This document shows positions 7,339-8,172 of a stretch of 36,560 nucleotides of DNA, one piece after another; within the stretch, counting starts at the first letter, position 1; each line of letters opens with the position of its first letter. Made by a program: the position numbers and the translations under genes. The stretch is taken from positions 1 to 36,560 of IMG/VR virus record IMGVR_UViG_2724679539_000003. One strand, given 5' to 3'. The DNA is from a virus (Duplodnaviria; Heunggongvirae; Uroviricota; Caudoviricetes). The notes under the pieces are model-generated. The model was not told the DNA's origin and searched no databases. It saw nothing but the letters and a program-made list of their open reading frames with translations.

Positions 7339-8172
7339 TTATTTCTGTAATCGGTTTATATTAACGTAAAGCATCTCGATTAGCTCTTTTGCATTTTTAC
7401 TATAGTGCAATTCTCTATGGCAATTCGGACAAAGGGCAACACAGTTATCTGTTGTATCAGCACCACCTGAAGACAGGGGAATTACATGATGCACTTCCAA
7501 GTATGGGCTTCCATCATTTAAATAAAACGGAGCATTTTTACCACAGTTTTCACATATACCTTTACTTTGCTGTAAAATCCAAGCTTTTACCATCGGGTCT
7601 CGGAGATAAACTTTTTGTAGTCTTTCTACCTCAACTGGTTTTCTGGAGCCCTCGGGTTGACTCAACGTTTTCTTAATTAATTTACTAACCCTCATATTCA
7701 GAAGCGATTCATCATCTGTAGGCTGTGAAAGCTCTGATAGATCTCCACGTATTATAGACGCCCAAAAACTGTCACTATAAATACCTGGAACATTTATCAA
7801 TATTCGTTTCGTTCTATTGCCGGAAGGAATTTCCTTTCTCCCCGTACGACTAAAATAAGCCTGATAACCACACATCTTCAAGCGTATATCGCGGGGGCTA
7901 TTACCAATCAAAGTAAAATATTCACCAGGATGGATTTTTCTTTCATCCAAAGAATGCATATGTTTTCTGACTGATGATGACGCCAGATATACTACGATTT
8001 GGGATACACCAGAATCAACCAACCGTTCAATGATATAATCAAGAGCGATATTGTAATCTTTGTTTCTGTCACCCGGCCCCCACGACTCAAGGATTAGACC
8101 ATAAACGCCATCCTCTTCACCTATCGAACACTCAGCTTTTAGTTCAATTCCATTATTATCAAAAACATGCAT
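7339..8172 (-). CDS. mcrA: McrA, 5-methylcytosine-specific (type IV) restriction endonuclease, HNH family
   Basis: 277-aa ORF; C-terminal HNH motif (CENCGKNAPF...EVHHVIPLSSGG...CPNCH); AT-rich; sits next to pin at the prophage end as in e14. Confidence 0.9.
   Translation of the reverse strand: MHVFDNNGIELKAECSIGEEDGVYGLILESWGPGDRNKDYNIALDYIIERLVDSGVSQIVVYLASSSVRKHMHSLDERKIHPGEYFTLIGNSPRDIRLKMCGYQAYFSRTGRKEIPSGNRTKRILINVPGIYSDSFWASIIRGDLSELSQPTDDESLLNMRVSKLIKKTLSQPEGSRKPVEVERLQKVYLRDPMVKAWILQQSKGICENCGKNAPFYLNDGSPYLEVHHVIPLSSGGADTTDNCVALCPNCHRELHYSKNAKELIEMLYVNINRLQK

What the first reader, a model, noticed from the sequence alone, without database searches (positions are those of the whole stretch)
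7339..8172. McrA type IV restriction enzyme carried as prophage cargo next to pin
An HNH-family modified-cytosine restriction gene at the attachment-site end of an apparently inducible prophage is an established defence moron (as in e14). Together with the two unassigned cassettes, this prophage may carry three defence loci.
Basis: established knowledge. Interest (0 to 1): 0.4.

Follow-up and report, generated by a model that had tools for sequence, protein, structure and literature searches.

The report
Intact McrA restriction gene on e14-type prophage
The gene is an intact, near-identical copy of the textbook E. coli McrA enzyme, which cuts DNA carrying methylated or hydroxymethylated cytosine, and it sits in its usual place at the end of an e14-type prophage, so it is real but ordinary.

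Summary
Confirmed and already known. Window 7339-8172 (- strand) is an uninterrupted 277-codon ORF. It is 273/277 residues identical to EcoKMcrA of E. coli K-12 and 100% identical to the annotated McrA of E. coli KE58. The four substitutions (V59I, E144D, V190L, N222S) are conservative. They miss every residue shown experimentally to matter: the methyl pockets S30/W31/N119, the recognition loops, and HNH residues H228/H229/N243/H252/H256. The setting is the canonical e14 one: tail-fibre invertible segment, pin, mcrA, AT-rich phage end, then the displaced icd 3' fragment. The phage/host junction lies at 7105|7106. The prophage is a full-length relative of the deleted e14 of K-12. mcrA occurs in 331 of 5,426 complete E. 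coli genomes, always chromosomal. All ten places read that carry this exact Pin have mcrA downstream at fixed spacing. The host backbone is not E. coli (about 88% identity), yet the phage end differs from an E. coli copy by 1 nt in 1.8 kb. That points to recent spread between species. "Inducible" cannot be judged, because repressor and integrase lie outside the window. Of the two other cassettes, one matches an untested PADLOC candidate (PDC-M53) and the other matches nothing informative. Interest is low.

The parts
7339..8172 (-). mcrA coding sequence (277 aa), intact
   Evidence: ORF. PDB 6GHC E = 1.3e-188, full length. PADLOC mREase_IV 663 bits. 4 aa differences from K-12 and 0 from E. coli KE58 WP_021519698.1.
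7744..8172 (-). N-terminal NEco specificity domain (residues 1-143), which reads Y5mCGR / 5hmC without base flipping
   Evidence: Matches the NEco crystal construct 6R64 over residues 1-143, E = 3.3e-94. S30, W31, G32-G34, R109, G118, N119, T121 and K122 are identical to K-12; the only change in this domain is V59I. Residue roles come from PMC7145662.
7405..7554 (-). C-terminal HNH (beta-beta-alpha-Me) nuclease core, residues 207-256
   Evidence: Pfam PF01844, E = 2.1e-15. H228, H229, N243, H252, H256 and C207/C210/C248/C251 are present. Alanine variants of H228, H229, H252 and H256 are inactive in PMC6182155.
8173..8273 (-). AT-rich (25% GC) pin-mcrA spacer, presumed to hold the mcrA promoter
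   Evidence: GC content. The spacer matches K-12 apart from a 5-nt indel and three substitutions. The consensus scan found no - strand promoter here above its threshold, so promoter function is inferred, not shown.
7106..7338 (-). AT-rich (27% GC) terminal phage DNA between mcrA and the att junction (presumed attP arm)
   Evidence: Identical to the E. coli KE58 prophage end, and unrelated to the prophage-free chromosome L098 beyond 7105. GC content.
6941..7105 (-). Displaced 3' fragment of icd (equivalent of icdC), marking attR
   Evidence: Pfam Iso_dh, profile positions 301-348/348. Aligns to K-12 icdC. The junction is at 7105|7106.
6895..6917 (-). icd intrinsic terminator; the first terminator-like site downstream of mcrA
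   Evidence: 9-bp stem with 6 GC pairs, followed by a T run.
8274..8828 (-). pinE serine DNA invertase (184 aa)
   Evidence: Pfam Resolvase, E = 1e-51, plus HTH_7. Annotated pinE in KE58 and K-12. In all ten places read that carry this exact protein, mcrA follows at a fixed spacing; eight of them have it as an intact called 277-aa gene and L090 and L093 carry frameshifted copies.
8890..10885 (.). Pin-invertible tail-fibre segment, bounded by 20-bp inverted repeats (8890-8909 and 10866-10885, 18/20 matching)
   Evidence: The segment lies in the opposite orientation to KE58. Repeats were read directly. Both orientations occur among related loci.

Best explanation
The gene encodes a functional orthologue of EcoKMcrA, a solitary type IV (modification-dependent) restriction endonuclease. 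[quoted passage not shown] Each N-terminal NEco domain binds double-stranded DNA carrying 5-methyl- or 5-hydroxymethyl-cytosine in a Y(5mC)GR context, without flipping the base. The HNH site then cleaves: H229 activates the water, and the metal is held by H228, H252 and H256. In the lysogen this should restrict incoming DNA that carries CpG-type cytosine methylation (for example HpaII- or SssI-like patterns) and phages with non-glucosylated 5hmC. It should spare the host's own DNA and the prophage. The gene is cargo of an e14-family myovirus-type prophage integrated in icd. It sits between the pin invertase and the right attachment site, is compositionally foreign (38.6% GC against 55.7% for the structural genes), and travels with the phage. 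Shown here: gene intactness, residue conservation, context and distribution. Inferred: expression, dimerisation, specificity and the restriction phenotype.
For: The protein is 273/277 residues identical to K-12 EcoKMcrA and matches the crystal structure sequence 6GHC at E = 1.3e-188. All residues required experimentally are conserved. H228A, H229A, H252A and H256A abolish cleavage, and H228A/H229A impair restriction in cells (PMC6182155). S30, W31 and N119 form the methyl pockets, and loops 29-37, 64-71 and 107-123 contact the bases (PMC7145662). The four substitutions fall outside these: V59I; E144D in the flexible linker 144-146; V190L in the crossover region 179-191; and N222S in a loop. 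There are 6 synonymous against 4 conservative non-synonymous differences from K-12. The exact protein is recorded in 1,101 blocks of the assembly collection. PGAP annotates it as mcrA in 331 of 5,426 complete E. coli genomes. The context is the same as e14 in K-12, and loss of e14 is the classical McrA-minus genotype (PMC4444293). GC is 38.6% against 55.7%. No methyltransferase is adjacent.
Against: No expression or activity data exist for this copy. The consensus promoter scan found nothing above chance upstream of the gene. EcoKMcrA itself is a weak nuclease in vitro, and wild-type (glucosylated) T4 and lambda were not significantly restricted (PMC6182155), so the protective range is narrow. 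Frameshifted copies occur in some relatives (L090, L093, L104), although assembly error is a possible cause. That shows the gene is dispensable.
Confidence: 0.9

Rival explanations
1. The enzyme and mechanism are the same, but the selected benefit is not defence against lytic phages. It would instead be a barrier to foreign CpG-methylated DNA (plasmids, DNA from other hosts) or exclusion of competing temperate phages, which benefits the prophage rather than the cell.
For: [quoted passage not shown] Glucosylated T4 and lambda escape restriction. The gene is fixed at the prophage end next to pin in all ten places read that carry this exact Pin (two of them frameshifted).
Against: T4gt (5hmC) is efficiently restricted by the wild-type enzyme, so anti-phage activity is real. 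The two benefits are not mutually exclusive, and sequence cannot separate them.
Confidence: 0.25
2. The gene is intact but effectively silent or too weakly active in this host to give a phenotype: a passenger on its way to decay.
For: No promoter was found above chance. The Shine-Dalgarno sequence is weak, read directly. In vitro activity of the type enzyme is weak. Frameshifted alleles exist in relatives.
Against: The same upstream region, with only a 5-nt indel and three substitutions, drives the classical McrA+ phenotype of K-12. The excess of synonymous changes, with only conservative replacements, argues for maintained function.
Confidence: 0.08
3. It is an ordinary phage HNH endonuclease (homing or terminase-associated packaging factor), not a restriction enzyme.
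For: PHROG and Pfam label it only 'HNH endonuclease'. A true terminase-associated HNH gene exists elsewhere in this prophage, at 28146-28559.
Against: It has the complete NEco modification-reading domain (6R64 match over residues 1-143) and full-length near-identity to EcoKMcrA. It lies at the att end, about 19 kb from the terminase genes. The packaging role is already filled by the 137-aa HNH next to TerS.
Confidence: 0.01

Closest known systems
EcoKMcrA (mcrA/rglA, b1159) of E. coli K-12 cryptic prophage e14; PDB 6GHC, 6R64, 6T21, 6T22
   Same: Same length (277 aa), with 273/277 residues and 824/834 nucleotides identical. Same NEco + HNH architecture, with every catalytic and specificity residue conserved. 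Same neighbours (pinE upstream, icd 3' fragment downstream) and nearly the same flanking spacers.
   Different: Four conservative substitutions (V59I, E144D, V190L, N222S). The carrier here is a full-length prophage with tail, head, terminase and lysis modules. K-12 e14 is a 15-kb deletion derivative in which window 10865-12535 and 25195-26932 are adjacent. The host backbone is not E. coli.
McrA WP_021519698.1 on the icd-integrated prophage of E. coli KE58 (NZ_CP141075.1) and relatives
   Same: The protein is 100% identical. The phage end 7106-8909 differs by 1 nt. The late region is collinear at about 97% identity.
   Different: The invertible tail-fibre segment lies in the opposite orientation. 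The head region (about 22.0-25.9 kb) does not align to KE58. The host flank differs: iraM in E. coli; a truncated integrase, a PhzF-like gene and an inverse autotransporter here.
ScoMcrA / SRA-HNH and EVE-HNH modification-dependent endonucleases (e.g. ScoA3McrA 5ZMM, TagI, VcaM4I)
   Same: They share the general logic of a modification-reading domain fused to a dimerising HNH nuclease. The HNH region aligns to 5ZMM at E = 1.3e-10.
   Different: Their reader domains (SBD, SRA, EVE) flip the base or read phosphorothioate, and are unrelated to NEco. Homology is limited to the HNH domain (PMC3874153).

Membership tests
EcoKMcrA family (NEco-HNH type IV restriction endonuclease) | Full-length sequence homology to the type enzyme EcoKMcrA | tested here: met
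   273/277 residues identical. PDB 6GHC E = 1.3e-188 over residues 1-277. PADLOC PDLC03656 covers 1-277/277 at 663 bits.
EcoKMcrA family (NEco-HNH type IV restriction endonuclease) | N-terminal NEco domain with both (hydroxy)methyl pockets (S30, K122/N119; W31) and the base-contact loops 29-37, 64-71 and 107-123 | tested here: met
   All listed residues and loops are identical to K-12; the only change in the domain is V59I. Roles are taken from PMC7145662.
EcoKMcrA family (NEco-HNH type IV restriction endonuclease) | C-terminal HNH beta-beta-alpha-Me active site (H229 general base; H228, H252, H256 metal ligands; N243 structural) plus two CxxC pairs | tested here: met
   H228, H229, N243, H252, H256, C207, C210, C248 and C251 are present. 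Pfam HNH E = 2.1e-15. Roles are from PMC6182155. The zinc-finger role of the cysteines rests on the literature cited there (Bujnicki 2000) and was not read here.
EcoKMcrA family (NEco-HNH type IV restriction endonuclease) | Solitary nuclease with no cognate methyltransferase (type IV) | tested here: met
   The neighbours are pin and the icd fragment, and the spacers hold no ORF longer than 39 aa. None of the window ORFs scanned against Pfam matched a methyltransferase family.
EcoKMcrA family (NEco-HNH type IV restriction endonuclease) | Modification-dependent restriction of 5mC/5hmC DNA in vivo and Mn2+-dependent cleavage in vitro | not testable with these tools
   Needs a plasmid or phage restriction assay, or purified protein. 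Here it is inferred only from near-identity.
e14-family prophage integrated in icd | Integration within the 3' end of icd, leaving a displaced ~165-bp icd fragment at attR | tested here: met
   The 165-bp icd fragment lies at 6941-7105. Collinearity with the prophage-free chromosome L098 ends at 7105|7106. attL, the integrase and the functional icd lie outside the window and were not seen.
e14-family prophage integrated in icd | Gene order tail fibre / invertible segment - pin - mcrA - attR, and DNA homology to e14 | tested here: met
   Window 6888-8909 is 96.3% identical to K-12 e14. 10865-12535 and 25195-26932 match e14 at 96.5% and 98.4%. Annotation.
Phage 'moron' (accessory cargo gene) | Compositionally distinct insertion at a module boundary or genome end | tested here: met
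   mcrA is 38.6% GC and its flanking spacers 25-27%, against 55.7% for the tail-to-terminase genes. It lies between pin and attR.
Phage 'moron' (accessory cargo gene) | Own promoter and terminator allowing expression from the repressed prophage | tested here: inconclusive
   No - strand promoter was found above threshold in 8173-8273, and site counts equal those of shuffles. The first downstream terminator is the icd terminator at 6917-6895. K-12, with a nearly identical upstream region, is phenotypically McrA+.

The most novel reading that the evidence does not exclude
The window may hold the intact, currently transmissible form of the phage whose wreck is e14 in K-12. It is lysogenised in a non-coli Escherichia-like host and carries defence cargo in three separate variable slots. 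These are mcrA at the att end, a PDC-M53-like two-gene candidate between Q and holin, and an unknown two-gene cassette between the lysis and terminase genes. The 1-nt difference over 1.8 kb from an E. coli copy, against an ~88%-identical host backbone, would then document ongoing spread of McrA between species by lysogenic conversion.
Probability: 0.35. Interest if true: 0.3.

Novelty: already known. Interest (0 to 1): 0.08.

Why it matters
It matters little for discovery. McrA, its structure, its specificity and its residence on e14 next to pin are textbook, and standard annotation pipelines already name this exact protein. The practical points are modest. A strain carrying this prophage should be expected to restrict CpG-methylated or 5hmC DNA, which is relevant for cloning, transformation and phage work. 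The locus also gives a clean example of the full-length e14-type phage, with a very recent link between species.

Tried and rejected
(1) An exact 41-mer across the icd-terminator/left-flank junction found nothing in the species-representative genomes.

(2) A search for relatives of the PhzF-like flank gene in the same collection gave at most 86% identity, in Citrobacter, Buttiauxella and Kluyvera. The source species could therefore not be named. An exact-protein look-up did find genomes sharing the flank.

(3) I first read the truncated integrase at 6270-6827 as a second, tandem prophage at icd. I rejected this because the same integrase remnant, PhzF-like gene and inverse autotransporter follow an intact icd in prophage-free genomes. 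They are therefore native chromosome, with at most an ancient remnant.

(4) The phage record ON470584.1, which has a 100% identical McrA, is not evidence of a free virion. It is a 'partial genome' that includes the host genes icd, rluE, nudJ, mnmA and hflD.

(5) The two 'plasmid' hits are 15.2-kb circles collinear with K-12 e14, with mcrA split into three ORFs. They are excised or mis-binned e14, not plasmid carriage.

(6) The Rfam scan of 6500-9200 found nothing near any gathering score.

(7) The promoter scan gave no signal above shuffles.

(8) PDB sequence searches for the larger protein of each of the other two cassettes gave no meaningful match.

(9) I did not run structure prediction or large homology searches on McrA. 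At 98.6% identity to a crystallised enzyme they would add nothing.

Full report
**Observation.** It matches the crystallised E. coli enzyme EcoKMcrA (PDB 6GHC) at E = 1.3e-188 over its whole length. It also matches the isolated N-terminal domain constructs (6R64/6T21/6T22) over residues 1-143 at E = 3.3e-94. The PADLOC model for this type IV enzyme covers positions 1-277 of 277 at 663 bits. Pfam places an HNH domain at residues 207-256.

**Identity and integrity.** Translating K-12 b1159 and comparing gives four differences: V59I, E144D, V190L and N222S. At DNA level there are 10 differences in 834 nt, 6 synonymous and 4 non-synonymous. The protein is identical to WP_021519698.1, annotated '5-methylcytosine-specific endonuclease McrA' in E. 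coli KE58.

- The published biochemistry names H229 as the water activator and H228, H252 and H256 as metal ligands. Their alanine variants are inactive. N243 is the structural Asn of the motif (PMC6182155).
- The NEco structures name S30, W31 and N119 as the methyl-pocket residues. Loops 29-37, 64-71 and 107-123, with R109, G118, T121 and K122, are the DNA-contact elements (PMC7145662).
- All of these residues are unchanged here.
- E144D falls in the flexible interdomain linker (144-146), and V190L in the 'crossover' stretch 179-191 of the HNH dimer. Both are conservative.

**Context.**
- Directly upstream, after a 101-bp spacer of 25% GC, lies a serine invertase (8274-8828, Resolvase + HTH_7), annotated pinE in relatives.
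- Beyond pin is a 2.0-kb tail-fibre segment (8890-10885) bounded by 20-bp inverted repeats matching at 18/20. It lies in the opposite orientation to the KE58 copy, and both orientations occur among related loci. The Pin switch therefore appears active in this phage lineage.
- Downstream of mcrA is 233 bp of 27%-GC phage DNA, then a 165-bp fragment of the 3' end of icd (6941-7105), followed by the icd terminator (6917-6895).
- Window 1-7105 is collinear at 98.96% with chromosomes that have an intact icd and no prophage (L098). The similarity stops at 7105|7106. That is the right phage/host junction.
- This is the e14 arrangement of K-12: stfE/tfa, pinE, mcrA, icdC.

**The carrier prophage.**
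- From 10.4 kb to 28.6 kb the - strand carries an unbroken series of Mu-like baseplate and tail genes, sheath and tube, HK97-type head, portal, and large and small terminase. A terminase-associated HNH follows.
- After that come Rz, endolysin and holin, a Q antiterminator, and early genes (DUF968, KilA-N, RusA) up to the window end.
- The region is collinear with E. coli prophages at icd at about 97% identity.
- K-12 e14 matches window 10865-12535 and 25195-26932 as adjacent blocks. e14 is thus a deletion derivative of this phage type.
- Repressor, integrase, excisionase and attL lie beyond 36560. 'Inducible' therefore cannot be assessed. Only the late, lysis and Q modules can be said to look intact.

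**Host and mobility.** The flank genes are a truncated integrase, a PhzF-like isomerase, an IS3 fragment and a 1,090-aa inverse autotransporter. They are absent from all 5,426 complete E. coli genomes at megablast sensitivity. In the genomes that share this flank, the phoQ-hflD block reaches 88.0% identity to the best-covering E. coli genomes; all but 3 of the 5,428 matching records fall in the 80-90% band, and those 3 in the 90-95% band. The host is thus a different, Escherichia-like species, which I could not name with these tools. In contrast, the phage end 7106-8909 differs from E. coli KE58 at a single position, while the 165-bp icd fragment and the trailer immediately after it (6935-7076) hold 11 differences. 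This sharp discontinuity at the junction shows that the phage, with mcrA, reached the two hosts recently.

**Distribution.**
- mcrA is present at 80% coverage or more in 331 of 5,426 complete E. coli genomes, always on the chromosome.
- The icd'-mcrA-pin block is present in 329 of them.
- The exact protein is indexed in 1,101 blocks of the assembly collection.
- All ten places read that carry this exact Pin have mcrA downstream at the same spacing. Eight have it as an intact called 277-aa gene, and L090 and L093 carry frameshifted copies.
- One exception to the usual context is an IS-rich, rearranged locus (L006) with a truncated pin.

**Mechanism (inferred from the characterised enzyme).**
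- The protein is a homodimer held by the HNH domains, which form one central DNA channel.
- Two flexibly linked NEco domains each bind fully or hemi-modified Y(5mC/5hmC)GR without base flipping.
- Cleavage depends on Mn2+ at the HNH site.
- In cells, the enzyme restricts M.HpaII-modified plasmid and T4gt, but not glucosylated T4 or lambda.
- Host Dcm methylation (CCWGG) is not a target (PMC3874153), so the enzyme needs no partner methyltransferase, and none is adjacent.
- Loss of e14 is the classical McrA-minus genotype (PMC4444293).

**Moron status.** Composition (38.6% GC against 55.7%) and position fit a moron. An autonomous promoter was not detectable above chance. The first terminator downstream is that of icd. 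The upstream spacer matches that of phenotypically McrA+ K-12 apart from a 5-nt indel and three substitutions, so expression is likely but remains inferred.

**The 'three defence loci' remark.**
- The 32%-GC cassette at 31284-32898 (+), between Q and holin, matches PADLOC PDC-M53A (E = 2e-32) and PDC-M53B (E = 2e-54).
- PDC systems are 145 untested candidates chosen because they sit embedded within BREX, DISARM or type I RM loci (bioRxiv 10.1101/2024.01.29.577857).
- The 37%-GC cassette at 28629-29652 (+) matches only PHROGs of unknown function. It has no Pfam, PADLOC, NCBIfam or PDB match, and it occurs as 'hypothetical' genes in 73-80 E. coli genomes.
- Both cassettes sit exactly where the window loses alignment with its closest relative, so they are variable slots.
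- One established locus, one candidate and one unknown is the fair count.

**Verdict.** The feature is already known in every respect that can be tested by sequence, and interest is low.

Noticed in passing
window 31284-32898 (+): A two-gene, 32%-GC cassette sits between the Q antiterminator (32902-33267) and holin (30672-30998). It encodes a 340-aa soluble protein and a 194-aa protein with long hydrophobic stretches (read by eye, not tested). It matches the untested PADLOC candidate PDC-M53A/B (E = 2e-32 and 2e-54) and is absent from the closest relative at this slot.
   Followed up: partly
window 28629-29652 (+): A two-gene, 37%-GC cassette (117 aa + 208 aa) lies on the opposite strand between the terminase-associated HNH and the Rz/lysis genes. 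It matches only PHROGs of unknown function (14397, 12494), with no Pfam, PADLOC, NCBIfam or PDB match. The same DNA occurs in 73-80 of 5,426 E. coli genomes as 'hypothetical protein'.
   Followed up: partly
window 8890-10885: A Pin-invertible tail-fibre segment has 20-bp inverted repeats (AAACGTTGGTTTGGGAGAAG and AAACCTTGGTTTAGGAGAAG). It is flipped relative to E. coli KE58, and both orientations occur among relatives, so host-range switching looks active.
   Followed up: yes
window 1-7105: The host flank is not E. coli. It holds a 1,090-aa intimin/invasin-like inverse autotransporter (940-4212, ~60% GC), an IS3 fragment (4821-5105), a PhzF-like isomerase (5346-6137) and a truncated tyrosine integrase (6270-6827) abutting icd. 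The same arrangement follows an intact icd in prophage-free genomes whose phoQ-hflD block reaches 88% identity to the best-covering E. coli genomes (all but 3 matching records in the 80-90% band). The species could not be named.
   Followed up: partly
window 6935-7076 versus 7106-8909: There is a sharp identity break at attR. Compared with E. coli KE58, the icd fragment and its trailer hold 11 mismatches, while the next 1.8 kb of phage DNA holds 1. The fragment also differs at about 15 positions from the icd 3' end of the prophage-free genome L098 of the same flank type, consistent with the known mosaicism of the icd 3' end.
   Followed up: partly
window 28146-28559 (-): A 137-aa HNH endonuclease lies immediately upstream of the small terminase subunit (27526-28029). 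This is the usual packaging-associated HNH of P27/HK97-type phages, not a defence gene, although it gives weak PADLOC HNH hits.
   Followed up: partly
L003 (ON470584.1) and L104 (OR902858.1): Two public records look mislabelled. The 'phage' vB_EcoM-689R6 record contains the host genes icd, rluE, nudJ, mnmA and hflD. The 15.2-kb 'plasmid' is collinear with K-12 e14 (an excised circle or a binning artefact), with mcrA broken into three ORFs.
   Followed up: partly
L003 35567-37278: In the related E. coli prophage record, the integrase end (outside this window) carries a DUF262-domain gene plus a partner between int and icd. K-12 e14 has lit, ymfD and ymfE in that position. The other att end of this phage family may therefore also be a variable cargo slot.
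   Followed up: no
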